Assembly (NCBI GenBank): GCA_947624195.1
Contig: CANQJH010000001.1
Span: forward strand, 49,233-113,232
Length of the DNA stretch: 64,000 nt
Direction of reading: 5' to 3'
Origin: an uncultured Clostridia bacterium
Lineage (GTDB): Bacteria; Bacillota; Clostridia; TANB77; CAG-508
Positions 6,015 to 64,000 of this stretch are shown here, one piece after another (the stretch's first letter is position 1; every line of letters begins with the position of its first letter). The position numbers and the translations under genes were made by a program. A model generated the notes under the pieces. It did not search any database and was not told the origin of the DNA. It was given only the letters and a program-made list of their open reading frames with translations.

Positions 6015-6824
6015 ATGAAAACAACAGCATGGGAAAAAGTCGAAATAGCTAGAAATACTAAAAGAAAAACGGCACTGGACTATATAGATGAAATATTTGA
6101 CGAATTCATAGAATTGCATGGAGATAGAAATTTTAAAGACGATAAAGCAATAGTATGTGGACTTGCAAGGATAGGAAAACAAAATTTCACAATTATAGCA
6201 GAGCAAAAAGGCAGAACAACTAAGGAAAATATTGAAAGAAATTTTGGTATGCCAAATCCAGAAAGTTATAGAAAAGCAATAAGGTTTATGAAACAAGCAG
6301 AAAAATTTAATAGACCAGTAATAACATTTATTGACACAAAAGGAGCTTATCCAGGAATTGGAGCAGAAGAAAGAGGACAAGGAGAAGCAATTGCAAAATC
6401 AATGTTTGAAATGGCTAAATTAAAGGCCCCAACAATAGCAATCGTAATAGGAGAAGGCTCAAGTGGAGGAGCTTTAGCAATTGGAGTAGCAAATAAAGTA
6501 TTAATGCTAGAAAATGCAATCTATTCTATATTATCGCCAGAGGGATTTAGCAGTATTTTGTGGAAAGACTCATCAAGATACAAAGAAGCTGCAGAAAAAA
6601 TGAGATTAACAGCAAAAGATTTAAAGGATTTAAAAGTAATAGATAAAATAATAAAAGAGCCAAGCGGAGATGTAGAGGAAAGCTTTAAAGCAGTATCAGA
6701 AAGCCTAAAAAAAGAAATAAAAACAAGCATTTCTAAACTAAAAGAAAAATCAGAGCAAGAAATCGTAGAAGATAGATATACAAAGTTTAGAAACATGGGA
6801 GAATTCGAGGTTATAAACGGATAA
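6015..6824 (+). CDS. accA: acetyl-CoA carboxylase carboxyltransferase alpha subunit
   Basis: Carboxyltransferase alpha motifs (FIDTKGAYPG, GEGSSGGALAIG); lies directly downstream of accD. Confidence 0.9.
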   Translation: MKTTAWEKVEIARNTKRKTALDYIDEIFDEFIELHGDRNFKDDKAIVCGLARIGKQNFTIIAEQKGRTTKENIERNFGMPNPESYRKAIRFMKQAEKFNRPVITFIDTKGAYPGIGAEERGQGEAIAKSMFEMAKLKAPTIAIVIGEGSSGGALAIGVANKVLMLENAIYSILSPEGFSSILWKDSSRYKEAAEKMRLTAKDLKDLKVIDKIIKEPSGDVEESFKAVSESLKKEIKTSISKLKEKSEQEIVEDRYTKFRNMGEFEVING

Positions 6825-6926
6825 TGCAGCTATACAAAAAATACTAGAGGATTATACAAAGTTCAAAAATATTAAATAAAAAAAGAAAGGAGAAAATGGT
6901 ATATAAATGTACCATGTAATTGAAAA

Positions 6927-7700
6927 ATGCTATTAAAAGATAAAAAAATATTAATAATGGGTATAAGAAATAAATGGAGCATAGCTTATGGAATAGCAAA
7001 ATCAGCATATGAAAATGGAGCAAAATTAATATTTACGTATATGGGAGAAGACAATAAAGAAAAAATAGAAGAATTAATAAAAGATTTTGAGGGAAGTAAA
7101 GCATATGTATTAGACGACGCAGCAGAAGATGATTTGGTTTCTGAAGTGTTTACAAAAATAAAAAATGAAAATGGCAAAGTTGATGGAATAGTACATGCAA
7201 TAGCACACGCAAATACAGAAGATTTGCACAATGATTTCATATATACTTCAAAAGAGGGATTTAGCCATGCAAACGATGTAAGTGCTTATTCATTTGTGCT
7301 AGTTGCAAGAATGGCAAAAGAGTTAGATATGTTAAATGAAAATGCAAGTTTAGTAACCCTAACTTATTATGGATCAACCAAAGTGCTAGAGGGATATAAC
7401 ATAATGGGAATTGCAAAAGCAGCACTAGAATCAAGTGTAAGATATTTAGCAGAAAACCTTGGAAAACAGGGGGTAAGAGTAAATGCAATTTCAGCAGGCC
7501 CAATAAAAACATTATCAGCAAAGGGAATAAAAGATTTTAGCAAGATTTTAACCATTGTGGAAGAAAAAGCACCATTACACAGAAACGTAACAATAGAACA
7601 AGTTGGAAATGTATCTACATTTTTGTTAAGTAACATGTCAGAAGCGATAACAGGACAAGTAATATACGCTGATAGTGGTTACAATATTATGGGAATTTAA
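6927..7700 (+). CDS. fabI: enoyl-ACP reductase (NADH)
   Basis: FabI-type short-chain dehydrogenase with IAYGIAK and GPIKTLSA motifs. Confidence 0.85.
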   Translation: MLLKDKKILIMGIRNKWSIAYGIAKSAYENGAKLIFTYMGEDNKEKIEELIKDFEGSKAYVLDDAAEDDLVSEVFTKIKNENGKVDGIVHAIAHANTEDLHNDFIYTSKEGFSHANDVSAYSFVLVARMAKELDMLNENASLVTLTYYGSTKVLEGYNIMGIAKAALESSVRYLAENLGKQGVRVNAISAGPIKTLSAKGIKDFSKILTIVEEKAPLHRNVTIEQVGNVSTFLLSNMSEAITGQVIYADSGYNIMGI

Positions 7701-7739
7701 GCATATAGACTTTTTATAAGGCAAAGAATATTCAATATT

Positions 7740-7840
7740 ACCGTGGTAAGAGTGATGTGAGGAACATTGATAGATTTCCAGAATATTATTTTGAAAAAAT
7801 CTATAAGAAGTGGAAAGCTGATAGAATTTAAAAATAAACT
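7740..7840 (+). repeat. diverged copy of the 3' end of the 144-aa gene at 11297..11731
   Basis: About 95 bp homologous to 11635..11731, including the near-identical run encoding KKS(I/V)RSGKLIEFKNK. Confidence 0.6.
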
Positions 7841-7871
7841 TAGTACAACTTTCAAGAAAGTTGTATATAAA

Positions 7872-7900
7872 ATGTCGTTAAGTAATGTACTTAACGACAT
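7872..7900 (+). terminator. palindromic hairpin followed by a T-rich run
   Basis: atgtcgttaagta-atg-tacttaacgacat followed by ttttatata; a related hairpin occurs at 9571..9598. Confidence 0.4.
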
Positions 7901-8033
7901 TTTATATACGTATTTTATACTAAAAAATAAACAAAATCAAGATATAAAAAAATTTTTTTATATAAATAAAATTTAAAATATAAAAAGTTCGCAAAGTGTT
8001 GATTTTAAAAGCTAATCTCCGAAAAATAAATTA

Positions 8034-8056
8034 TCATTAAGTACATTACTTAATGA
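8034..8056 (+). promoter_or_regulatory. perfect inverted repeat (10-bp arms, 3-bp spacer) 27 nt upstream of the start codon
   Basis: tcattaagta-cat-tacttaatga; the same arms recur at 9731..9753 upstream of the paralog. Confidence 0.5.
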
Positions 8057-8082
8057 TAAAAATTTGAGAGGAGCAAAAGATA

Positions 8083-9399
8083 ATGAAAAACAAAGGAATA
8101 ACACTAGTTGCGCTAGTAGTAACAATAGTAATTATGTTAATTTTGGCAGGGGTAACATTGAGATTAGCTTTAGGGGAAAATGGATTGTTTAATATATCAA
8201 AACAATCAGTTGAAAAGTATGAGGAATCAGTCCAAAACGAAGAAGAAGAATTAGATGAATTACTAGAAGAATTAAAGCATATAATGCCAGAAGAGGCAGG
8301 AAAAGAGGTAGAAGTACCAAAAGCAGAGAAAGATAAGTGGGATTTAACAAAAGTAACACCAACAGCAGACGGAAAAGGAAATACAATACCAGTACCAAAA
8401 AATTTTTATTATGTAGGAGGAGATAAAGACTCAGGATTTGTAATATCAAGTGTAAGTGGAGATGATCTAAACAATAGTAAAAAAGGTAATGAATTTGTAT
8501 GGGTACCAGTAAAAGTTATAAATGATATGGTAATGTGTAAGGAACATACAACAGCTACAATTACTTTTGATGGAGTAAATTTTTCTTGTGATGGAAATGG
8601 ACACCCACATACACCGAACAAAGAATACTTGGTAGGACAACTTTATACTCCGACTACGGATAATGGATTTACTGCAGGAATACCATATACAGAATATAAT
8701 GAAAACATAATAAGGGAACCAGGATTGACAACAGTGGATACAGATGAAAATTTATCTAATTTTTTACAGACTACATCAAATGAATTTTTACAGGAGTTAC
8801 AAGAAGAATTTTATAAAATGGCAAAAAGTGTAGCAAAATATGGAGGATTTTATATAGGCAGATATGAAACATCAGGTTTAAATGACGGCGAGGAACCAAA
8901 AGTACAATCGGGACTAGTACCAACGGGAAACATTAACTGGTATACAATCTACAAAAATAGTAAAAAAATAGCCCAAGAAGGTTCAAATGTAACAAGTAGT
9001 ATGATATGGGGAAGTCAATGGGACTATGTACTAAATTGGATGCAAGACATAGAAAATCCAACATTGACAGAAGAAAAGAAATATTACATTATGGACAGTA
9101 GAGGAATGGGTTGGTATTATGGAGAAACAGGAAACAATGAGCATAAAACAGGAATAGATTTGATAAAGGACGGAAAAGTAACCAATAAAGAAAAAAATAT
9201 TTATGATTTTGCAGGAAATTTTGAGGAATTAAATATGGCTTGCTCGGGCGGTACAGTACGTGCTTTACGTGGAGGATCTTATAAGCTGGAGGGAAATGTT
9301 CGTCCTGCTTGTAACCTTCGACTGGTAAGACCTGACGCTATATATGAGTGGGTTAGTAGTCGAGTTACACTTTGTATAAACTTGAATCCGGGGGAGTAA
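8083..9399 (+). CDS. pilin-like-anchored surface protein with a C-terminal FGE-sulfatase/C-type-lectin-like domain; candidate DGR target 1
   Basis: N-terminus KGITLVALVVTIVIMLILAGV resembles a type IV prepilin signal but lacks F+1 and E+5; a coiled-coil stalk follows. The C-terminal motifs IYDFAGNFEE, RGGSY and RLVR match the FGE-sulfatase fold. The 3' end is GC-rich and A-depleted. Confidence 0.8.
   Translation: MKNKGITLVALVVTIVIMLILAGVTLRLALGENGLFNISKQSVEKYEESVQNEEEELDELLEELKHIMPEEAGKEVEVPKAEKDKWDLTKVTPTADGKGNTIPVPKNFYYVGGDKDSGFVISSVSGDDLNNSKKGNEFVWVPVKVINDMVMCKEHTTATITFDGVNFSCDGNGHPHTPNKEYLVGQLYTPTTDNGFTAGIPYTEYNENIIREPGLTTVDTDENLSNFLQTTSNEFLQELQEEFYKMAKSVAKYGGFYIGRYETSGLNDGEEPKVQSGLVPTGNINWYTIYKNSKKIAQEGSNVTSSMIWGSQWDYVLNWMQDIENPTLTEEKKYYIMDSRGMGWYYGETGNNEHKTGIDLIKDGKVTNKEKNIYDFAGNFEELNMACSGGTVRALRGGSYKLEGNVRPACNLRLVRPDAIYEWVSSRVTLCINLNPGE
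9235..9396 (+). other. putative DGR variable-region-like patch in target 1
   Basis: Local GC far above the window background, depleted in A, with rare codons (TCG, GGC, CGT, CGA); coincides with the last beta-strands of the lectin-like fold. Confidence 0.45.
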
Positions 9400-9426
9400 C
9401 TTGATAGGTTCAAACTTATTTTTAAA

Positions 9427-9452
9427 CCAGAGCAGTTAGAGAGCTGCTCTGG
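9427..9452 (+). other. GC-stem hairpin just downstream of target 1, with no U-tract
   Basis: ccagagcagttagagagctgctctgg followed by gttgttgatg; positioned like a DGR VR-flanking hairpin rather than an intrinsic terminator. Confidence 0.45.
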
Positions 9453-9566
9453 TTGTTGATGATACAGTCAAATGAAAAAATATAAACGGAATAAAAGAAT
9501 TTCAATTATAGGAGAAATATTAGATAAAATAAATAATATTATAAAAAAATAAATTAAAAATTGTTA

Positions 9567-9783
9567 AATTGTCGTTAAGTAATATACTTGACGATATATT
9601 CATATATGTATTTTATACTAAAAAATAAACAAAATCAACACTTTATATAATTTTCTTTTTGAAATAAAATTGAAAATATAAAAAATCTGTAAAGTGTTGA
9701 TCCTCAAGACTAATCTCCACAAATAAATTATCATTAAGTATATTACTTAATGATAAAAATAAAAAATTGGAGAGGTGCGGAAG
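9567..9783 (+). repeat. duplicated 5' regulatory region (copy 2), including the operator-like palindrome at 9731..9753
   Basis: Homologous to 7870..8082; contains tcattaagta-tat-tacttaatga. Confidence 0.7.
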
Positions 9784-11076
9784 ATGATGAAAAACAAAGG
9801 AATAACACTAGTTGCTTTAGTAGTAACAATAATAATTATGTTAATTTTAGCAGGGGTGACATTAAATATTGCTTTAGGTGATAACGGATTAATAAAGCAA
9901 ACAAAAAAAGCAGCGGATTTAGCAAAAGAGTCTATGAAAAATGAGGAAGAAGATGTAGGAAAACTAGTTAATCAATTAGATGAAGTAATAAAAGAAAGTT
10001 TACCAAGTACAGTAAAAGAAGCAATAGAAACAGAAGAAATATTTACAGTTAATAAGAAAATAACGGATGAAAGTGGAAAAACAATGGTAGTACCAAAAGG
10101 CTTTAAAGTAATAGAAGAAACTAATATAGATAGTGGCGTAGTCATAGCAGACGGAGAAGGTAATGAGTTTGTATGGGTACCATGTGAAGATGGTGAATAT
10201 AAAAAACATGTATATGATGTAAAACAAATAGATGATGCTACTACTACTTTAGCTGATGGAGTAAACAAAGAAAAAGGTTGGACTACATTACAGTATAGAA
10301 AATATAGTGATTGGAAAGATGAAGTAGATGAAGTGGCAAATATAAAAAGTGTGGAAGATAATAAAGGATTTTATATAGCGAGATATGAAGCGGGTGTACC
10401 CAAGAATGCAGATTTTTATGTAGAGGCTTCTGCTGAAGGAGTTAAAAATAAAAATTATCCACAAAGTAAAAATGATATAAGTGATAATATAAAGCCAGTA
10501 AGTAAAAAAGGAGTGCAAACATGGAATTTAATAAGTCAAATAAATGCTAAAACCGTATCCGAAAGAATGTATAGCGGAGAATCTTACGGAGTAAGAAGTC
10601 AACTAGTAGATGGAACTGCATGGGACACTGCCGTAACATGGATGTCAAAAGAGTACGTAGGAATAGAAAAAAATAGTACAAATTATGGAAATTATAATAA
10701 CACACCTACAAAAGAAATAACAGGCTTATATGCAGCACATACTTATAGTGATGGTTGGCAATTAGCAACAAGTTATGGTTATGGAAAAAAAAGTATAGGT
10801 GGAAGAAGTAGTTTGAGAACTGAAATAGCGACAGGCTTAGTAAATGAGTTTAAACTAAAAAACATATATGATATGGCTGGAAATATGTATGAATGGACTA
10901 CAGAATATGGATATCATGATGGTGGAACCAGCAGTACAAAATATGTTGTTCAGCGAGGAGGATGTCCTACTGACGATGGTGGTGTCCACCCAGTTTCTGT
11001 TCGTAGTGGCTATTGGGCAGAAACGGTAGAAAATAATCCTGTATTTGGTTTTCGAGTTGTACTTTATGTAAAATAA
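9784..11076 (+). CDS. pilin-like-anchored protein with a C-terminal FGE-sulfatase-like domain; candidate DGR target 2, paralog of target 1
   Basis: Same N-terminal KNKGITLVALVVTIIIMLILAGV anchor and stalk. C-terminus carries IYDMAGNMYEWT, QRGGC and GFRVV. The ORF track starts at a GTG at 9775; the ATG at 9784 has a better RBS. Confidence 0.8.
   Translation: MMKNKGITLVALVVTIIIMLILAGVTLNIALGDNGLIKQTKKAADLAKESMKNEEEDVGKLVNQLDEVIKESLPSTVKEAIETEEIFTVNKKITDESGKTMVVPKGFKVIEETNIDSGVVIADGEGNEFVWVPCEDGEYKKHVYDVKQIDDATTTLADGVNKEKGWTTLQYRKYSDWKDEVDEVANIKSVEDNKGFYIARYEAGVPKNADFYVEASAEGVKNKNYPQSKNDISDNIKPVSKKGVQTWNLISQINAKTVSERMYSGESYGVRSQLVDGTAWDTAVTWMSKEYVGIEKNSTNYGNYNNTPTKEITGLYAAHTYSDGWQLATSYGYGKKSIGGRSSLRTEIATGLVNEFKLKNIYDMAGNMYEWTTEYGYHDGGTSSTKYVVQRGGCPTDDGGVHPVSVRSGYWAETVENNPVFGFRVVLYVK
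10920..11073 (+). other. possible variable-region-like 3' segment of target 2 (weaker composition signal)
   Basis: Moderately GC-enriched relative to the gene body; homologous in position to the patch in target 1 but with a codon indel relative to it. Confidence 0.3.
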
Positions 11077-11296
11077 ATTCTACCACTTTTGTAGTAAGAT
11101 GGAAGATTAAATGATTTTGGAGAGTTTTATATAGTGGAAGTGAAGAAAAACCATGGAGAAAGGGCAAGAATATCCAATACGGAGCCTTTAAGTTATTTTG
11201 ATAAAAATTAAAAAAATTGGCAAAATATGATAAAAAATGTTGCTAATTTTGCTATTAAGTTGTATAATCATTTAAATTACGTAAAGGAGAAACAAT

Positions 11297-11731
11297 TTGG
11301 AGAAATTAAACTTAGCAACAATAAATAAGGCTCATAGTAAAAACATAAAAATAGGTGAATTAAATGAGCAAGTTATAGAATTATTAAAATTAGATTTAAA
11401 ACCACAGAATATTAATATTTGGTCATCCAGATTAAAAGAACATTGTGAAAAACACAAAGATGAATACTCTAGTGTAAATGCATATAATCAAGCAATAAGA
11501 TTTATTCCGGAGATAATTAAAAATCCAGATTATGTTGGATTACATAGAAATGGTAATATTCAGTATGTAAAAAAGTTAGAAGACATATCTTTAGTCGGAA
11601 TACAAATTTTAAAAGGTAGTGGGCACTTATTATTTAGAACAATTTTCCCAATTTCAGAAACAAAGTTGAAAAAATCTGTAAGAAGTGGAAAGCTAATAGA
11701 ATTTAAAAATAAACAAAGAGAAAATACATAA
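11297..11731 (+). CDS. hypothetical protein, 144 aa
   Basis: Intact ORF whose 3' end is duplicated at 7740..7840; no family recognised with confidence. Confidence 0.5.
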   Translation: MEKLNLATINKAHSKNIKIGELNEQVIELLKLDLKPQNINIWSSRLKEHCEKHKDEYSSVNAYNQAIRFIPEIIKNPDYVGLHRNGNIQYVKKLEDISLVGIQILKGSGHLLFRTIFPISETKLKKSVRSGKLIEFKNKQRENT

Positions 11732-12148
11732 AGTATTTCCTCTTTTTAATTTTGGTTAATAGGTAGGACGGCGTACCCTACATCTACTTATAAGACCATC
11801 TCTGGCGTGATAGCTGCCACTTTCTATCCTCAATTAACCTACTATGAGTGTACTCATAATTTTAAAAATTATGCATTACCTATATGTAAATATATTACAA
11901 AAATCTCAATAAGTCAATAGGTTTTAATTATTTTTTACAATTGTTGAACTAATTATAACTATATTTTAACATATTATTATAATTATGTCAACGGCTAAGA
12001 TATAGAATTTTTTCGTTTGTGCCTTTTTTTACTTTTTAATTGTAAAAAAATTTACATACTTTATTTTAATATTCGCCTCACTTTAAATTATTTTTTGTTT
12101 TTTTGCTCCTTTCTATATTTTACCAGTACAAGATGACACAATCTCCCT

Positions 12149-20388: not shown

Positions 20389-20598
20389 AAAAATTATTAT
20401 TAATTATATAGTTTAATAATAAATTTTTTCACTTAAAGTATATGGTATTAAAATATTTTTGTCAATACTATGTTGATAAAAATTTTTTTATTTTTTTCAT
20501 CAAAATAATTCAAAAAGCCTGATATAACTGTGAAACAAGTATTTTTAAATTATTATTAAACTATATATTTAATAATAAATAAAAAATAGGAGGAAACC
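20389..20598 (+). repeat. 5' regulatory region of target gene 3, duplicated (about 95% identity) upstream of target gene 4
   Basis: Near-identical to 24787..24994 down to the RBS (ataggaggaaaccatg). Confidence 0.8.
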
Positions 20599-21807
20599 AT
20601 GGAAAAACAAAAGAAACAAGGAATTTTGAACATTAAAAACAGTAAAGGTATAACGTTAGTAGCATTAGTAATAACCATAATAATAATGCTAATATTAGCA
20701 GGGGTGGCATTAAGACTAGCATTAGGAGAAAATGGTTTATTTAAAATGTCAGAGAAAGCAGTAGAGAAGTATAAAGAGGAAGCAGCAAAGGAAGAAAATA
20801 CACTAGGGAATATGGAAAAACAACTAAAGTACATGATAGAGGGCTATGTGCCAGACAGAAGTATGCTAAAAGTAGGAGATGAAGTAAATTATACGCCCCA
20901 AACGGCAAAAACGACATATACTTTAGAAGGTAACAAAAGTGGATACGGAGACTATACAAGTAGTAAACCTAAAACAATGACAAAAGCAACAGACCAAGAA
21001 ATAAGTCAAGAGAATTATACATGGAAGATAATGGACATAAATAGTAAAACAGGAGAAGTAAAAATAATGGGCGTACCAACAAGTAGTATGCCTACAGTAT
21101 ATTTCAAAGGAGCATTAGGATATAACAATGGAGTATATCTTTTGGATGATATATGTAAAACATTATATAGTAATAGTGACTTGGGAGTAACAGCAAGAAG
21201 TATAGATATAGAAGATATTGAAAGTAAAATGAATGACAAAGGAAGAGATGCAAAAAATGATTATATATCAGAAAATCAAACAACCAAAGAATTTAACGGA
21301 AGTAATGCATATTACCCTAACATATATAAATATCAACAAGATTCAAATATAGATGGAACAGAAAAGACAGAAGGAATAAGTGAAAGTGATGATGGAACAA
21401 AAACAGAAGCAGGAATACCAATTGAGCATGCAACAAATGTAGAAGGATATACACAAGCAGAAACAAGTATCACAGTAAAAGGAACATACTATTATGCAAC
21501 GCAAAATGCAGGATATTTTGATGATGAAGACTTTTACAATTTAATGTTTAAAACAGGTACATATTATTGGCTTGCTTCGCGTTATTCTGGTTGCTTCTCG
21601 AGTAGCTCTTGTGCTGACTTTGGGCTTCGCATTGTGGCCAGCTCTAGCATCAACGGTTACAAAATGTTCAATTCGGATGGCGATTACGACGACGACAATA
21701 TTCGCGTTTGCCCGGTAGTTTCTCTAGGGGCTAATATCCAAATCACAAGAGATGGAAACGCAGGAGCATGGGACTTATCGAAGGACCCAAATTTTGGTGG
21801 ATTTTAA
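20599..21807 (+). CDS. pilin-like-anchored protein with a C-terminal DUF1566/Fib_succ-major-like (C-type-lectin superfamily) domain; candidate DGR target 3
   Basis: N-terminus KGITLVALVITIIIMLILAGV plus an ALGENGLFKMSEKAVEKYKEE stalk shared with the other three targets. The C-terminus has YYW...NIRVCPVVSL resembling the YWSS...VRCVR motif of DUF1566. Confidence 0.75.
   Translation: MEKQKKQGILNIKNSKGITLVALVITIIIMLILAGVALRLALGENGLFKMSEKAVEKYKEEAAKEENTLGNMEKQLKYMIEGYVPDRSMLKVGDEVNYTPQTAKTTYTLEGNKSGYGDYTSSKPKTMTKATDQEISQENYTWKIMDINSKTGEVKIMGVPTSSMPTVYFKGALGYNNGVYLLDDICKTLYSNSDLGVTARSIDIEDIESKMNDKGRDAKNDYISENQTTKEFNGSNAYYPNIYKYQQDSNIDGTEKTEGISESDDGTKTEAGIPIEHATNVEGYTQAETSITVKGTYYYATQNAGYFDDEDFYNLMFKTGTYYWLASRYSGCFSSSSCADFGLRIVASSSINGYKMFNSDGDYDDDNIRVCPVVSLGANIQITRDGNAGAWDLSKDPNFGGF
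21561..21735 (+). other. putative DGR variable-region-like patch in target 3 (strongest composition signal)
   Basis: The first ~90 nt contain roughly 10% A by hand count, against roughly 35-40% A in flanking coding sequence. Dense TGC/TCG/CGC/GGC codons; the composition falls back to normal about 80 nt before the stop. Confidence 0.5.
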
Positions 21808-24613: not shown

Positions 24614-24786
24614 TACGTTACCATTATGTGCAATAAAAAACAACTATATTTATGTTATACGCAATGTACAAAACATAAAATAGTTGTTTTTATTAAATAA
24701 ATAGATTGAAGTTATTATTAATTATATATAAATTTAAACTATTATTAGTTAAATAGACTAGAATTATCAATCATTTTAAACAAATT

Positions 24787-24994
24787 AAAATTATTATTAA
24801 TTATATAGATTAATAATAAATTTTTTCACTTAAAGTATATGGTATTAAAATATTTTTGTCAATACTATGTTGATAAAAATTTTTTTATTTTTTTCATCAA
24901 AATAATTCAAAAAGCCTGATATAACTGTGAAACAAGTATTTTTAAATTATTATTAAACTATATATTTAATAATAAATAAAAATAGGAGGAAACC
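24787..24994 (+). repeat. duplicated 5' regulatory region (copy 2) upstream of target gene 4
   Basis: See 20389..20598. Confidence 0.8.
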
Positions 24995-25981
24995 ATGAAA
25001 AAACAAAAGAAAGAAAACAAGTTCAACTTAAAAGAACAAGGTATAACGCTAGTTGCGTTAGTAGTAACAATAATAATACTTTTAATCTTAGCAGGAGTAA
25101 CAATCAACATAGCTTTAAGGGAAAATGGATTATTTAAAATGTCAGAGAAAGTAGTAGAGAAGTATAAGGAAGAAGCAGGAAAGGAAGAGGAAACATTACA
25201 GGATTTAGAACAACACATAAAAAATAATACACCCGTTGAACCAGCAGAAGAACCTAAAGAGCCTATAGGAAAAACACCGTATGTAGGATATTATGCAAGT
25301 AGAGATGGAATAACAGTAGATGGAATAATATATGCAGACCAAGCAGTAGGAAATACAAACGGAACAAAATGGAGTGATGGTGATGGAACCTACACAATAC
25401 CAATAAAAGAAGAAGGCTTAAAGGAATACTATATAAGTCAAGAATCATACACAACAGAAGCCTTTGGACCAAAACCTGTGTTAACACCAATAAATGATGA
25501 AGGAGAAGACAGATTTTATATCATGTCACTTGAAGATTTTGGAGGAAAAGGACAAAGTTATTATTGGTATTATAGCGCATTTAAAAATATGAGTGATTAT
25601 AGTACAGCAACATCAACAAAATTTGGAACTGGAAAAACCAATACAGAGAACATGGTAGCAAAGTGGACGGCGGGAGAAAGTGAAGATGGTTATGGAAAGC
25701 AAGATGGGGGAAGCACATATAAAGATATATGGGGATACTTTTCAAGAAAAGAAATACCAGAAGGATGGTTTTTACCATCAAGAGGAGAATTAGCAGCATT
25801 TATGCAAGAATTAGGGATAAACAGCAGTAATTATTCTAATCAATTTCAATTATCTAGTTATTACTGGTCGTCGTCGCAGTTCAATTTTAACTACGCATGG
25901 CTCGCGTACATGCTTATTGGTTGTATGAGCAGCTACACTGTGAATTACGGCCGCTGCGTGCGCCTGAGTGCGACTTTCTGA
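24995..25981 (+). CDS. pilin-like-anchored protein with a C-terminal DUF1566-like domain; candidate DGR target 4, immediately upstream of the RT
   Basis: N-terminus QGITLVALVVTIIILLILAGV and a conserved stalk. The C-terminus SSYYWSSSQFNFNYAWLAYMLIGCMSSYTVNYGRCVRLSATF fits the YWSS...AW...R.VRCVR signature. Confidence 0.75.
   Translation: MKKQKKENKFNLKEQGITLVALVVTIIILLILAGVTINIALRENGLFKMSEKVVEKYKEEAGKEEETLQDLEQHIKNNTPVEPAEEPKEPIGKTPYVGYYASRDGITVDGIIYADQAVGNTNGTKWSDGDGTYTIPIKEEGLKEYYISQESYTTEAFGPKPVLTPINDEGEDRFYIMSLEDFGGKGQSYYWYYSAFKNMSDYSTATSTKFGTGKTNTENMVAKWTAGESEDGYGKQDGGSTYKDIWGYFSRKEIPEGWFLPSRGELAAFMQELGINSSNYSNQFQLSSYYWSSSQFNFNYAWLAYMLIGCMSSYTVNYGRCVRLSATF
25855..25978 (+). other. putative DGR variable-region-like patch at the extreme 3' end of target 4
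   Basis: Roughly 18% A by hand count over ~120 nt. Contains TCG-TCG-TCG, GCG, CGC, GGC and CTG codons that are rare elsewhere in this AT-rich genome. Confidence 0.5.
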
Positions 25982-26004
25982 TTTTGTAAAAAATCAGAAA
26001 AATA

Positions 26005-26075
26005 TAGGCCTACATTATGTAAATAATGTAGGCAATTCAAACCGAGATATTCTTCGTAAGAAGAAACTCGGTTTG
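26005..26075 (+). other. two consecutive stem-loops between target 4 and the RT, neither followed by a U-tract
   Basis: taggcctacatt...aatgtaggc (26005..26033) and caaaccgag...ctcggtttg (26038..26075), the latter with a nested ttcttcgtaagaagaa palindrome. Confidence 0.5.
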
Positions 26076-26178
26076 AATTAAAAGGATTAGATTGATAAAA
26101 GGAAATTTATTATAGAAAATGCGAGTTTCATTATATTAAGTTTAAATACTCTTCTTATGAAGAGTATTTTTATAAGAG

Positions 26179-27321
26179 GTGTATATGGATAATAAGCTAA
26201 CTTTTGAAGATTTATATGAAGCATATAATTTATGTTTAAAAAATAAAAAAAATAAAATAGGAACATATAATTTTGTAAACTATAATTTATGCAAAAATTT
26301 AATGGAGCTACTAGAAGAATTAAATAATAAACAATACATTCAAAGACAATCTAATTGTTATGTAGTTAAGGATCCAGCATTGAGAGAAATATATGCAGCT
26401 CAATTTTTTGACAGAGTAGTACAGCATTTTTATATGAAAGAAGTAGAACATATTTTAGAAGAACAATTAGTTGACGGTTGTTGTTCATGTAGAAAAAATA
26501 AAGGTAATGATTATGCTCTTCAATTATTAAAGAAATATCTTAAAGTAGTATCGAATAATGGGAAAAAAGACTGTTACTTTCTTAAAATTGATTTATCTGG
26601 ATATTTTATGTCAATAGATAGAAAGCAAATAAGTCAAAAGTTCTTAAATCTTATAAGCAATAAATATAAAGGACCATATAAAGAATTACTCATTTATTTA
26701 ACTCCAATTATATTTGAAAATAATCCGGCAGTGAACTGTAAGTATAAATGTAATGAAAAAGTAAGAAACCTAGTACCTGAAAGAAGAAAAATGAATCCGA
26801 AATCCGATTATGGAATGGCTATAGGTAATTTGACTTCTCAGGCAGGTAGCAATTTTAATCTCAGTGAATTTGATAATTACGTTGTATATAAACTAAATCT
26901 AGTTAATTATATTAGATATGTTGACGATATGGTGATAATTTCAAATAATAAACAAGAGTTACAAAATGCAATGCCGTATATAATAAATAAACTTAAAGAA
27001 ACTAATCAATCTATAAGTGAAAAGAAAACTAAAATAGATACTGCGTATCATGGAGTACCATTTTTGGGAAAAGTTTCTTTTCCATACGGTTATCAAAAAG
27101 CTAAAAAATCGACAATAGTGAGAGTATATAAAAGGGGTAGAGAAATTAGATATAAGGACACAGACAATTTATTAGCAAAAACAAATTCGCAAATTGGATT
27201 GCTAAAAGGATATAACTGCAGAAAACTAATATTAAATTATTCTAAAATTATACAAAACAAAACGGGAGACGAAATTTATTTGAATGAAGAAATGTTAAAA
27301 TTTTGTAAAAAGAATAAATAA
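26179..27321 (+). CDS. diversity-generating retroelement reverse transcriptase
   Basis: RT motifs ALREIYAAQFFDRVVQH (motifs 1/2), LKIDLSGYFMSIDRK (motif 3), AIGNLTSQ (the DGR-specific GxxxSQ motif 4) and YVDDMVII (motif 5). The likely start is the ATG at 26185 with an aagagg RBS; the track begins at a GTG at 26179. Confidence 0.85.
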   Translation: MYMDNKLTFEDLYEAYNLCLKNKKNKIGTYNFVNYNLCKNLMELLEELNNKQYIQRQSNCYVVKDPALREIYAAQFFDRVVQHFYMKEVEHILEEQLVDGCCSCRKNKGNDYALQLLKKYLKVVSNNGKKDCYFLKIDLSGYFMSIDRKQISQKFLNLISNKYKGPYKELLIYLTPIIFENNPAVNCKYKCNEKVRNLVPERRKMNPKSDYGMAIGNLTSQAGSNFNLSEFDNYVVYKLNLVNYIRYVDDMVIISNNKQELQNAMPYIINKLKETNQSISEKKTKIDTAYHGVPFLGKVSFPYGYQKAKKSTIVRVYKRGREIRYKDTDNLLAKTNSQIGLLKGYNCRKLILNYSKIIQNKTGDEIYLNEEMLKFCKKNK

Positions 27322-27411
27322 AGCTTGTTATATAGGAAAAATAAATAAATAGAAAAAATTGTAACAATACAATACCTCACTACATAAATTAATGTAGGAG
27401 GTATTTTTATA

Positions 27412-28338
27412 ATGTATGATGATTATTTTAAAAATATAATTGGTGGAAGTATAAAGTCTCCAGAATACTATGTTTCTACATATGATAACCATACTTATCA
27501 GCCTAGACAAGTAAGTGCTCTTCCAGGATACAATTATTCTGCCGATACAAATTTTAATGACAATGACATTGAAGATTTATATCCAGATATTTATAAAATT
27601 GTATCCCCAATGGTAGATAAACTTTTAGACGGAAAAACTTTTGATAATGTAAATGAAGACATGTTGGTAAAATGGACTGTGGAAATCTATGATGCTCTTG
27701 AAGTTGATGATGATAATACCAAATTAGTAAATGATAATGTTGCTAAAACTGGCAGTAGTGTTATTTCTAATGGTACTAGTAGATCAAATGTAAATCAAGG
27801 AGTTGCAGGTAATAGTAGCAATAATACTATAAGACCTGGCTCTAACTATGAAAGTGAAACTACTAGCGCAAGGACTGCACAGAGAACGGTGCTATCTAAT
27901 ACAGTTGCAAATACACCTTCTAATACTATGACTAAAGCGGGAATAACTACACCTTCTTCTACAATAAGTAGTACAGCGGTCAATACATCATCTAATTCGA
28001 TAACTAATACAGGAGTAAGCGCATCACCTAATACAGTAAATAATGCAACAGTCAATGCAATATCTAATTCTACAACAAATAAAGAACCAAAAGTGGTTGA
28101 TGTAGTAAGTAGATATAGAAATTATAAAAATCCGCTTCTAAGGGATTTAATAAGAATATTGATTTTAAATAAATTATATGGAAATCGTAGACCGCCAAGA
28201 GGTATGCCAAGACCTTATCAAGACTTTGAACCAACATTTATTCCTATGCCAGATTATAGTAGTGTAAACACAGAAGTTTATAAACCTTATACTAATTATT
28301 CTAAAGCTTACTTAGACACACCTTATCCAGAAGAATAA
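27412..28338 (+). CDS. hypothetical protein with an S/T/N-rich low-complexity core and a Pro/Tyr-rich C-terminus
   Basis: The RBS is embedded in a hairpin (cctcactacat...atgtaggagg). The middle third is repetitive SNT/ANT; possibly a spore-coat-like structural protein. Confidence 0.45.
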   Translation: MYDDYFKNIIGGSIKSPEYYVSTYDNHTYQPRQVSALPGYNYSADTNFNDNDIEDLYPDIYKIVSPMVDKLLDGKTFDNVNEDMLVKWTVEIYDALEVDDDNTKLVNDNVAKTGSSVISNGTSRSNVNQGVAGNSSNNTIRPGSNYESETTSARTAQRTVLSNTVANTPSNTMTKAGITTPSSTISSTAVNTSSNSITNTGVSASPNTVNNATVNAISNSTTNKEPKVVDVVSRYRNYKNPLLRDLIRILILNKLYGNRRPPRGMPRPYQDFEPTFIPMPDYSSVNTEVYKPYTNYSKAYLDTPYPEE

Positions 28339-28541
28339 GTATTTCAATTATTTAGTAATTTTGAAGATAACTTTTACGTAATAAATGTTGTATAAAGCTT
28401 GACAGAAAAGAATCTAATTCATATAATGTCTATAGGATTTTAAATAAAAAAAATTAATTAATTTTTAGGTAAATAAAAGTATAAATAATTATAAATAACT
28501 ATAAATAAGTCATAGGTAAACAAAGGGAGAAATAGAGTTTA

Positions 28542-57607: not shown

Positions 57608-57940
57608 TCTATAAGCCGGGTTCTGTCTAGAATGGTCATTTATCTAGGATATATATTGCTATATACCTCAAGCCACCAAATTTAGAGGACGACGAGCAGT
57701 CTTAACCCTCTAGTCTCGGTGTTGCTCCAGATGGGGTTTACACGGCTAGATGTATCACTACATCTACGGTGAGCTCTTACCTCGCCTTTTCACCCTTACC
57801 ATTTACATGGCGGTTATTTTCTGTTGCACTTTCCTTAAGGTTACCCTCACTTGACGTTATCAAGCATCCTTGCTCTACGGAGCCCGGACTTTCCTCATAC
57901 GCTGCCTTTCGGCCTTGCAATACGCGACCATTTAACTTAC
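57608..57940 (-). ncRNA. rnpB: RNase P RNA
   Basis: Minus-strand sequence contains GAGGAAAGTCCGGGCTCC, GGTAAGGGTGAAAAGGCGAGGTAAGAGCTCACC and the 3' ACAGAACCCGGCTTA. A hairpin plus T-run terminator follows. The track ORFs 57769..57960 and 57777..57977 are spurious. Confidence 0.8.
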
Positions 57941-62892: not shown

Positions 62893-64000
62893 CTTCTTTT
62901 TCCTTCCTTTCTCTAATTAATATTCTAATTGGTGTTCCACTAAAATCGAATTCTTGTCTTAATTTATTAATTAAGTATCTTTCATATGAAAAGTGGAATA
63001 ATTTTCTGCTATTTACAAAAACAGCAAACGTTGGCGGTTTTGTGCTAACTTGTGTCATATAATAAATTTTAAGTCTTCTTCCTTTGTCTGTTGGTGGTTG
63101 AACTATTGACACCGCTTCAGCCAATAATTCATTTAGATTAGATGTGCTTATCCTTAAAGAATTAAAATTTGATACCTTATTTATAAGTTCAAATATCTTA
63201 TCTATTCTTTGTCCTGTTTTAGCTGAGATAAATATAATTGGTGCATATGATAAATATGCTAATTTGTTGTATACATCCTTTTTGTATTGCTCTACAGTGC
63301 CATCATCTTTATTGTACTCGTCCCATTTATTTATTGCAATTATTATGGCTTTACCTGCTTCATGTGCCATACCTGCAATTTTAGTATCTTGCTCTGTTAC
63401 ACCCTCATTAGCATCTATCATAAGTACACACACATCAGCTCTTTCAATTGCTAAATTTGTTCGTAATATGCTGTATTTTTCAATGTCTTCTTCTATTTTG
63501 TTATGTTTTCTAAGCCCTGCAGTATCTATAAAAGTATATTTTCCATATTTATTTTCATAATCAGTGTCTATTGCATCTCTTGTTGTACCAGCAATATCGC
63601 TTACTATAAGTCTGTTTTCTCCTAAAATCTTGTTAATTAGTGATGACTTTCCTACATTAGGCTTTCCTATTACAGCAACTTTAATTCGCTCATCATCATT
63701 ATCTTCATCATCTTCTTTAGGTAACTGCTCATATATTATATCAAGAATATCACCTATACCTTTTGCATTTGCTGATGATATAGCATGTGGTTCTCCTAAT
63801 CCTAGATTATAAAATTCATAAATGTCATTTTCCGATTTTTTAAAATCATCAACTTTATTGCAAACTAATATTACTTTTTTATTAGCCTTTTTTAACATAA
63901 GTGCTATTTCTCTATCCAAACTCGTAATGCCAGTTTTAACATCTGTCATAAATATTACTAAATCAGCCAAATCAATTGCAATCTCAGCTTGTAGATGCAT
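62885..64000 (-). CDS. der: GTPase Der (EngA); 5' end lies beyond the window
   Basis: Second GTPase domain (GKPNVGKSSLIN), the tail of the first G domain, and a KH-like C-terminus. The ORF is open at the window edge. Confidence 0.85.
   Translation of the reverse strand: MHLQAEIAIDLADLVIFMTDVKTGITSLDREIALMLKKANKKVILVCNKVDDFKKSENDIYEFYNLGLGEPHAISSANAKGIGDILDIIYEQLPKEDDEDNDDERIKVAVIGKPNVGKSSLINKILGENRLIVSDIAGTTRDAIDTDYENKYGKYTFIDTAGLRKHNKIEEDIEKYSILRTNLAIERADVCVLMIDANEGVTEQDTKIAGMAHEAGKAIIIAINKWDEYNKDDGTVEQYKKDVYNKLAYLSYAPIIFISAKTGQRIDKIFELINKVSNFNSLRISTSNLNELLAEAVSIVQPPTDKGRRLKIYYMTQVSTKPPTFAVFVNSRKLFHFSYERYLINKLRQEFDFSGTPIRILIRERKEKEDD

What the first reader, a model, noticed from the sequence alone, without database searches (positions are those of the whole stretch)
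25982..28541. No template repeat or avd found: an orphan RT, or a TR located elsewhere
A template repeat must retain every non-A base of its variable region. For these patches it would therefore be a segment of at least ~120 nt with 45% or more GC. The only such segments in the window are rnpB (57608..57940), the conserved SecA zinc tail, the purA gene, and an 80-bp patch at 11755..11830. None of these align to any candidate VR in either orientation. The 200 bp upstream and the 90 bp downstream of the RT are AT-rich, and no small basic Avd-like ORF is present. Either the TR lies elsewhere in the genome (trans-acting), or the cassette has lost its TR and the VR patches are relics.
Basis: inference. 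Interest (0 to 1): 0.75.

Follow-up and report, generated by a model that had tools for sequence, protein, structure and literature searches.

The report
DGR reverse transcriptase orphaned by deletion
This is a diversity-generating retroelement that kept its reverse transcriptase and its diversified target gene but lost its template repeat and accessory gene in a roughly 0.7-kb deletion, so it is most likely a dead, ordinary relic rather than a new kind of system.

Summary
No template repeat (TR) and no Avd-like gene lie next to the RT, anywhere in the 64-kb window, or in 10 kb of extra flank on each side.

A TR is the VR with some bases replaced by A, so it can be A-rich and low in GC. The correct A-tolerant scans still find nothing.

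The RT (26185..27321) belongs to a large family of gut-Clostridia DGRs. In 14 relatives the order is target(VR), 153-aa basic accessory gene, TR, RT. The TR/VR pairs there differ only at TR adenines.

In the window, about 35 bp of AT-rich filler replaces the accessory gene and the TR body. What remains is a 10-nt TR stump (TGCGAGTTTC, 26120..26129), the invariant spacer and the hairpin before the RT. The VR, its IMH-like end and three conserved downstream hairpins are also intact. The RT keeps 141 of 142 family-conserved positions.

Two related genomes have an empty site here, so the module (24628..27356) is a lineage-specific insertion that is now decayed.

Only the VR at 25862..25978 belongs to this RT. 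The patch at 21568..21705 matches the TR of a different, bAvd-type DGR.

A trans TR elsewhere in the genome could not be excluded, because the genome is not in the searchable collections.

The parts
24628..27356 (+). DGR module (target gene plus RT) that is inserted relative to related genomes, which have an empty site between murD and the ORF308 homologue
   Evidence: In L039 and L037, murD homology ends at window 24627/24600 and resumes at 27357/27396. Homology to DGR relatives also ends at 27357.
24995..25981 (+). Target gene, 328 aa. It has a prepilin-like N-terminus (GITLVALVVTIIILLILAGV) and a C-terminal lectin-like domain that carries the VR.
   Evidence: ORF and translation. Weak Lcl_C match, E=0.0024, below Pfam's cut-off. 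39% identical to the target of relative L005 over 255 aa, E=2e-41.
25862..25978 (+). Variable region (called VR4 in this report). It is 51% GC and 18% A in a 30% GC genome.
   Evidence: It aligns ungapped and in register to the TRs of four relatives, and only there in the window. Against the family TR consensus, 19 of 33 invariant-A columns are mismatched versus 5 of 41 invariant non-A columns, Fisher p=4.6e-5. Composition.
25970..25981 (+). VR 3' end, GCGACTTTCTGA. It is IMH-like, with C where the TR has G.
   Evidence: All 14 relatives end their VR in GACTTTCTAA and their TR in GAGTTTCATTATA.
25975..26000 (+). Hairpin 1, overlapping the stop codon: 11-bp stem, GTAA loop
   Evidence: Consensus fold of 12 loci. 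The window carries a compensatory G-C where the others have A-U.
26008..26033 (+). Hairpin 2 downstream of the VR
   Evidence: Consensus fold with compensatory changes at three pairs. Also listed.
26038..26075 (+). Hairpin 3: inner stem TTCTTC/GAAGAA with a GTAA loop, outer stem CAAACCGAG/CTCGGTTTG
   Evidence: The inner stem is conserved with covariation. The outer stem was read from the sequence.
26084..26119 (+). AT-rich filler (19% GC) at the deletion junction. It stands where relatives have about 740-790 bp holding the accessory gene and the TR body.
   Evidence: blastn and global alignment to L005: window 26083 corresponds to L005 9191 and window 26122 to L005 9935. GC content.
26120..26129 (+). 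TR stump, TGCGAGTTTC: the last bases of the template repeat, with the TR-specific G
   Evidence: CGAGTTTC is invariant in all aligned relatives at the end of their TRs. TGCGA matches the window's own VR end, GTGCGAC.
26130..26184 (+). Spacer between TR and RT: invariant ATTATA.TAA, hairpin 26144..26169 (AAATACTCTTC/GAAGAGTATTT, loop TTAT), TTTATAA, RBS
   Evidence: Alignments. Relatives have a hairpin of different sequence at the same place.
26185..27321 (+). DGR-type reverse transcriptase, 378 aa, apparently intact
   Evidence: RVT_1 match, E=5e-15. Motifs IGNLTSQ and YVDD. Best solved structure is 8ub7_A, a 328-aa RT with IGSLTSQ and YMDD, E=9e-18. 4028 homologues. 141 of 142 columns that are at least 97% conserved in 112 relatives are kept.

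Best explanation
The window holds a decayed diversity-generating retroelement.

Its lineage normally works as follows. One transcript carries the TR, a short spacer and the RT. The RT, helped by a small basic accessory protein, copies the TR into cDNA and misreads adenines. The cDNA then replaces the VR at the 3' end of the upstream target gene, guided by the IMH-like end and the downstream hairpins.

Here a deletion of about 0.7-0.8 kb removed the accessory gene and all but the last ~10 nt of the TR. The following parts survive:
- the target gene, with a VR that had already been diversified
- the VR's recognition elements
- the TR stump
- the spacer hairpin
- an RT gene that still looks intact

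Without a template the RT cannot rewrite the VR, so the VR is frozen. The intact RT suggests the loss is recent, or that the RT has not yet had time to decay.

Shown: the homology, the deletion, the stump, the intact RT, and the adenine-biased differences of the VR from the family TR. Inferred: the mechanism (by analogy with studied DGRs), the loss of function, and the timing.
For: 1. Family membership. The RT has the DGR motif IGNLTSQ plus YVDD. Its best solved-structure match is a 328-aa RT with IGSLTSQ and YMDD.

2. Canonical architecture in relatives. Every one of the 14 loci whose held sequence reaches the target gene upstream of the RT has a TR within about 200 nt upstream of the RT and a VR with 0-1 non-A mismatches in the best 50-mer. 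All carry homology to the 153-aa accessory protein, though in two it is truncated. The window lacks both TR and accessory.

3. Deletion mapped. Window 25708..26083 corresponds to L005 8816..9191, and window 26166..27357 to L005 9980..11176. A global alignment places CGAGTTTCATTATATTAA (26122..26139) on the invariant TR end and spacer.

4. The stump carries the TR-specific G, whereas all VRs have C.

5. The VR bears the adenine signature against the family TR: 19/33 versus 5/41 mismatches, p=4.6e-5.

6. No TR, accessory gene, Avd or MSL occurs in 84 kb.

7. The junction is not at the VR/TR homology. It is present in metagenome assemblies of three ENA samples (node names are SPAdes-style) and in two Logan contigs, so it is not a repeat collapse.

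8. Inactivated DGRs are common. More than half of candidate DGRs were discarded as defective in a curated survey (PMC5758913).

9. Partial decay is seen elsewhere in this family. The accessory gene is truncated in L028 and L029, and the RT is split by a 3.4-kb insertion in L030.
Against: - The RT shows no sign of decay: 141 of 142 conserved positions are kept, and it is no more divergent than other family members are from each other. That would also fit continued use.
- All VR-side recognition elements and the spacer hairpin are intact.
- The rest of the genome could not be searched, so a second TR-spacer copy elsewhere is not excluded.
- Two Logan contigs from different samples both begin at 25960, inside the VR's 3' end. 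This could reflect polymorphism there. However, two other Logan contigs share a start at 63257 in an ordinary gene, so it is weak evidence.
Confidence: 0.8

Rival explanations
1. The element is still active and uses a TR (with its spacer) encoded elsewhere in the genome, acting in trans on the VR at 25862..25978.
For: The RT is intact. The VR, its IMH-like end, the three hairpins and the spacer hairpin are intact. The rest of the genome is unsearched. Two Logan contigs start inside the VR's 3' end.
Against: In all 14 relatives whose held sequence reaches the target gene, the TR sits immediately upstream of the RT on the same strand. A stump at exactly that place shows the cognate TR was there and was deleted. 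No TR occurs in 84 kb. No VR variants exist among the available assemblies or in the 90% protein cluster. The accessory gene is also missing. A shared contig start also occurs at an ordinary gene.
Confidence: 0.1
2. The missing segment is an assembly artefact: the assembler collapsed the VR and TR repeats or skipped the accessory-TR segment.
For: VR and TR are repeats that often break or confuse short-read assemblies. One ENA contig and two Logan contigs end near the target gene.
Against: A collapse would join the VR to the TR at their shared sequence. Instead the full VR end, the stop codon, three hairpins and 35 bp of filler precede the stump. The same junction appears 100% identical in contigs from several samples, in both ENA assemblies and Logan contigs.
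Confidence: 0.03
3. The RT has been kept for another job that needs no TR/VR pair, for example a defence-type or other template-independent role.
For: The RT ORF is intact despite loss of the TR. It gives weak sub-threshold similarity to retron and Drt RT models.
Against: Those matches are far below the family cut-offs (35-70 bits against 200-550) and reflect only the shared RT fold. The protein is an ordinary member of a DGR family whose relatives all carry a TR and VR. No defence-type partner gene is adjacent; the neighbours are host backbone genes.
Confidence: 0.05

Closest known systems
Bordetella phage BPP-1 DGR (mtd VR, avd, TR, brt), the prototype of mutagenic retrohoming
   Same: The gene order of the family is target(VR), small basic accessory, TR, RT. 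The RT has the (I/L)GxxxSQ and YxDD motifs, and its best solved-structure match is the 328-aa RT 8ub7_A, which I take to be bRT from its length and motifs. TR/VR differences in relatives are restricted to adenines. The VR lies at the 3' end of a lectin-like domain and is followed by a hairpin with a 4-nt loop.
   Different: In the window the TR and accessory gene are deleted. The family's 153-aa accessory protein has no Pfam, NCBIfam or PDB match to Avd, although it is basic (pI 9.5). The element is chromosomal in a gut Clostridia genome rather than in a phage. The target has a prepilin-like N-terminus.
MSL-containing DGRs (Architecture D of Wu et al. 2018, PMC5758913)
   Same: A subset of the RT's relatives (L005, L009, L012, L013, L030) carry a 127-aa MutS_I-domain gene just downstream of the RT.
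   Different: The window has no MSL gene. Homology to relatives stops 35 nt after the RT stop, where host backbone begins. Most GTDB relatives also gave no match to the L005 MSL protein in the sequence held.
Inactivated or incomplete DGR cassettes noted in genomic surveys (PMC5758913)
   Same: The RT is present but has no usable TR/VR pair. The survey reports that over half of candidate DGRs were discarded for stops, truncations or poor TR-VR matches.
   Different: Here the lesion is mapped to the base: a stump of the TR and an intact spacer remain, and the RT and VR-side elements are still undamaged.

Membership tests
Diversity-generating retroelement (functional cassette) | Reverse transcriptase of the DGR clade, with (I/L/V)GxxxSQ in motif 4 and YxDD | tested here: met
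   IGNLTSQ and YVDD are present. The best PDB match is a 328-aa RT with IGSLTSQ and YMDD, E=9e-18. Relatives at 64-74% identity sit in cassettes with TR/VR pairs.
Diversity-generating retroelement (functional cassette) | A template repeat matching the VR, with mismatches only at TR adenines | tested here: not met
   No TR was found in the window or in 10-kb flanks on either strand. Only a 10-nt stump remains. The rest of the genome was not testable.
Diversity-generating retroelement (functional cassette) | A variable region at the 3' end of a target gene, with an IMH-like end and a downstream hairpin | tested here: met
   The VR at 25862..25978 aligns in register to relatives' TRs and shows the adenine-biased mismatch pattern. 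It ends in GACTTTCTGA like all relatives' VRs. Three hairpins are conserved with covariation.
Diversity-generating retroelement (functional cassette) | An accessory gene (avd or equivalent) next to the TR/RT. This is usual but not universal: 29% of curated DGRs lack one (PMC5758913). | tested here: not met
   No homologue of the family's 153-aa accessory, of bAvd or of MSL occurs in 84 kb. No small ORF lies in the intergenic regions.
Diversity-generating retroelement (functional cassette) | Ongoing diversification of the VR in the population | not testable with these tools
   No reads are available. All contigs of this organism are 100% identical across the VR and the target protein is a singleton cluster. 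Both facts come from only a few samples.
Group II intron, retron or Drt reverse transcriptases | Score at or above the curated family cut-off | tested here: not met
   group_II_RT_mat scored 70 bits against a cut-off of 300. Retron St85 scored 48 against 235. Drt2-5 scored 20-35 against 200-550.

The most novel reading that the evidence does not exclude
The RT is kept intact because it is still used. A TR-spacer RNA encoded elsewhere in the genome would be copied in trans to diversify the pilin-like target at 24995..25981. That would make this a split DGR in which the template has been physically uncoupled from its RT.
Probability: 0.08. Interest if true: 0.6.

Novelty: new member of a known kind. 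Interest (0 to 1): 0.22.

Why it matters
The main value is as a caution and a clean example. An RT with a DGR motif next to a GC-rich, A-poor 3' patch does not mean there is an active DGR. The missing TR here has a simple explanation, a mapped deletion, rather than an exotic trans-acting design.

It also shows how to search for a TR correctly. The TR is the VR with extra adenines, so it can be AT-rich.

Of wider, modest interest: this gut Clostridia genome carries four prepilin-like surface proteins. At least two of them have DGR-type variable ends belonging to different DGR classes, and only one, crippled, RT is nearby. This suggests that frozen DGR targets persist and spread independently of their diversifiers.

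Tried and rejected
1. Searching public collections for a trans TR. I used an IUPAC pattern that accepts A at every VR position. It gave 0 hits in genome contigs, metagenome contigs and viral contigs. Even the VR itself was not found, so the source genome is simply absent from these collections and the test is uninformative.

2. Looking for VR variants of the four pilin-like proteins in the 90% clusters. All four are singletons.

3. Treating the 308-aa ORF after the RT as a possible accessory gene. Rejected: it is acidic, has no family match, and sits next to murD in two related genomes that have no DGR.

4. Treating the 11755..11838 patch as a TR candidate. It is a skipping-rope RNA.

5. Reading the shared start of two Logan contigs at 25960 as proof of VR polymorphism. 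Rejected as specific evidence, because two other Logan contigs share a start in an ordinary gene.

6. Consensus folding of the spacer region. It failed because the loops have variable length. The hairpin is seen sequence by sequence only.

7. Identifying the family's 153-aa accessory protein as Avd by sequence. There was no Pfam, NCBIfam or PDB match. Structure prediction was not possible because the protein is not encoded in the window.
Full report
**What is at the coordinates**

The span 25982..28541 contains four things:
- a 203-bp AT-rich intergenic region (25% GC)
- an RT gene at 26185..27321. Homologues start at the ATG two codons after the GTG that the ORF finder lists.
- a 90-bp intergenic region (21% GC)
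- a 308-aa ORF at 27412..28338

Immediately upstream lies a 328-aa gene (24995..25981). Its N-terminus looks like a prepilin signal. Its last ~120 nt (25862..25978) are 51% GC and 18% A, in a window that averages 30% GC and 37% A.

**The RT is a DGR RT**

- It matches RVT_1.
- It carries IGNLTSQ and YVDD.
- It falls far below the cut-offs of the group II intron, retron and Drt models.
- Its best solved-structure match is 8ub7_A, a 328-aa reverse transcriptase with IGSLTSQ and YMDD. From its length and motifs I take this to be the Bordetella phage bRT. The tool does not name it, and a text search for the code found nothing.
- It has 4028 homologues at E<=0.001. The nearest outside its own genome is 74% identical. 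The relatives recovered from genome collections are MAGs named Clostridia, Lachnospiraceae or Bacillota, and several record names point to animal guts (Lapin, roe deer abomasum, Hadza).

**Checking the absence of a TR**

In mutagenic retrohoming every non-A base of the TR is copied faithfully, and TR adenines become any base. A TR is therefore the VR with some bases replaced by A. It may be A-rich and low in GC.

I searched accordingly:
- Each of the four GC-rich 3' patches was slid along both strands of the window, penalising only mismatches at non-A positions of the TR candidate. The best background score was 13. A positive control in relative L005 scored 52.
- An IUPAC pattern (A kept, C to M, G to R, T to W) matched only the VR itself.
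- All-versus-all scans of the window in all orientation combinations returned only ordinary paralogous repeats.
- I fetched 10 kb beyond each end of the window from the same organism's contigs and scanned them. Nothing was found.

tblastn with five query proteins found nothing but the RT itself in these 84 kb. The queries were the family's 153-aa accessory protein, its MutS_I protein, and a bAvd, an MSL and a 320-aa RT from another DGR.

**What relatives look like**

I collected loci for RT homologues at 64-77% identity, from ENA/Logan contigs and from GTDB genomes.

Every one of the 14 loci whose held sequence reaches the target gene upstream of the RT shows the same order:
- a target gene with a VR at its 3' end
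- homology to a 153-aa basic ORF (pI 9.5; no Pfam, NCBIfam or PDB match)
- a ~135-nt TR ending 65-70 nt before the RT start
- the RT

The best 50-mers of the TR/VR pairs have 2-10 mismatches at TR adenines and 0-1 elsewhere.

A 127-aa MutS_I-domain gene follows the RT in a subset of loci. This corresponds to the MSL accessory class of Wu et al. 2018 (PMC5758913).

All VRs end in GACTTTCTAA. Twelve of the fourteen TRs carry the exact end GAGTTTCATTATA; it was not found as an exact string in L029 and L032.

**The lesion**

blastn to L005 aligns window 25708..26083 with L005 8816..9191, which covers the end of the target, the VR and the downstream hairpins. It aligns window 26166..27357 with L005 9980..11176, which covers the RT.

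A global alignment and a 7-sequence alignment place window 26122..26139 (CGAGTTTCATTATATTAA) on the invariant TR end plus spacer. The two preceding bases (TG) match the window's own VR end, GTGCGAC.

So the last ~10 nt of the cognate TR survive (TGCGAGTTTC, 26120..26129), including the G that distinguishes TR from VR. They are followed by:
- the invariant ATTATA.TAA
- a hairpin at 26144..26169, which differs in sequence but not in position from the relatives' hairpin
- TTTATAA
- the RBS

About 35 bp of 19%-GC filler (26084..26119) stand where L005 has roughly 740 bp of accessory gene and TR body.

On the VR side everything is kept. This includes the IMH-like end and three hairpins that are conserved with compensatory changes across 12 loci.

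**Not an assembly artefact**

A VR/TR repeat collapse would fuse the two at their shared sequence. Here the complete VR end, the stop codon, three hairpins and the filler precede the stump.

The junction is identical in metagenome assemblies of three ENA samples (node names are SPAdes-style) and in two independent Logan contigs.

**State of the surviving parts**

- The RT keeps 141 of 142 alignment columns that are at least 97% conserved among 112 relatives. The exception is F for Y at residue 299. It is as similar to the relatives (median 68%) as they are to each other (70%).
- Against the consensus of 14 relatives' TRs, the VR differs at 19 of 33 invariant-A columns but at only 5 of 41 invariant non-A columns (Fisher p=4.6e-5). 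It was therefore diversified before the template was lost.
- All contigs of this organism are identical through the VR, and the target protein is a singleton at 90% clustering. This comes from few samples, so it is only weak evidence of stasis.

**Genomic setting**

Two related MAGs (GCA_947624715.1 and GCA_947624185.1) have the same backbone: UvrA, Cmk, MurD, ORF308 homologue, MFS transporter. In both, MurD is followed directly by the ORF308 homologue.

Backbone homology leaves the window at about 24627 and returns at 27357. That is exactly where homology to DGR relatives ends. Two conclusions follow:
- The DGR module is 24628..27356. It ends 35 nt after the RT stop and never included, or no longer includes, an MSL gene.
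- ORF308 is a host gene, not an accessory factor.

**The other 'VR patches'**

The window encodes four prepilin-like proteins with GC-rich 3' ends: 8083..9399, 9775..11076, 20599..21807 and 24995..25981.

- Only the last aligns to this RT family's TR.
- The patch at 21568..21705 aligns ungapped over 138 nt to the TR of a different cassette, L035. That cassette has a 320-aa RT on the opposite strand, a 545-aa target, MutS_I, bAvd and a TR.
- The closest homologues of that protein (82-68% identical) differ mostly in this patch.
- That gene too is an insertion relative to the empty-site genomes.
- The patches are not similar to one another, apart from weak similarity between the first two.

One missing TR therefore cannot account for all the patches. 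I did not examine the first two in depth.

**What remains open**

The source genome is not in the three searchable collections. Even the VR was not found there. A second TR-spacer copy elsewhere in the genome therefore cannot be excluded.

Two Logan contigs from different samples begin at 25960, inside the VR's 3' end, which might hint at polymorphism. However, two other Logan contigs share a start at 63257 in an ordinary gene, so the hint is weak.

**Verdict**

This is a decayed member of a known kind of element. Curated surveys already report that more than half of candidate DGRs are defective (PMC5758913), and other members of this family show partial decay (L028, L029 and L030).

The finding is real. 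The interpretation 'lost its TR, VR is a relic' is the best supported. Its interest is low.

Noticed in passing
window 20599..21807 (VR-like patch 21568..21705): A second prepilin-like gene carries a VR that aligns in register over 138 nt to the TR of a different DGR class (L035: 320-aa RT, MutS_I, bAvd). No cognate TR, Avd or RT lies within 84 kb. Its closest homologues (P0126-P0128) differ mostly in this patch. The gene is an insertion between uvrA and cmk relative to L037 and L039.
   Followed up: partly
window 8083..9399 and 9775..11076: Two more prepilin-like genes, one with a weak FGE-sulfatase-type C-terminus, have 46-47% GC 3' patches. No TR was found for them. They share only weak similarity with each other and none with the other two patches. 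Whether they are DGR targets was not established.
   Followed up: partly
window 20390..20795 and 24787..25188: A ~400-bp repeat at 90% identity covers the upstream region and the N-terminal coding part of two of the pilin-like genes. One ENA contig of this organism starts at 24810, within it.
   Followed up: no
window 11755..11838 (-): Skipping-rope RNA (Rfam RF02924, 63.3 bits against a gathering score of 36.7).
   Followed up: yes
window 11297..11731 and 7785..7850: There is a PBECR3-family nuclease-like gene (Pfam E=3.5e-20). A ~60-nt copy of its 3' end lies upstream of the first pilin-like gene. It surfaced as the only 'A-biased' repeat in the all-versus-all scan and is an ordinary duplication.
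   Followed up: partly
L030 5001..9569: In one relative the RT gene is split after residue ~214 by a ~3.4-kb insertion. Its accessory gene, TR, VR and MSL are all present.
   Followed up: no
L028 1566..2110 and L029 4189..5001: Two relatives have a truncated accessory gene but keep a TR and a VR with no non-A mismatches. This suggests accessory loss recurs in the family.
   Followed up: no
L034 (ERZ27249389 NODE_178), 6589..11152: A different contig from the same sample carries three pilin-like genes in a row (one FGE-sulfatase type) next to T4SS and integrase genes. No RT and no TR/VR pair occur within ±10 kb.
   Followed up: partly
window 25960 (start of L003 and L004); window 63257 (start of L019 and L020): Logan contigs from different samples share identical ends, once inside the VR's 3' end and once in an ordinary gene. 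The cause is unknown; strain SNPs or coverage are possible.
   Followed up: partly
   Followed up: yes
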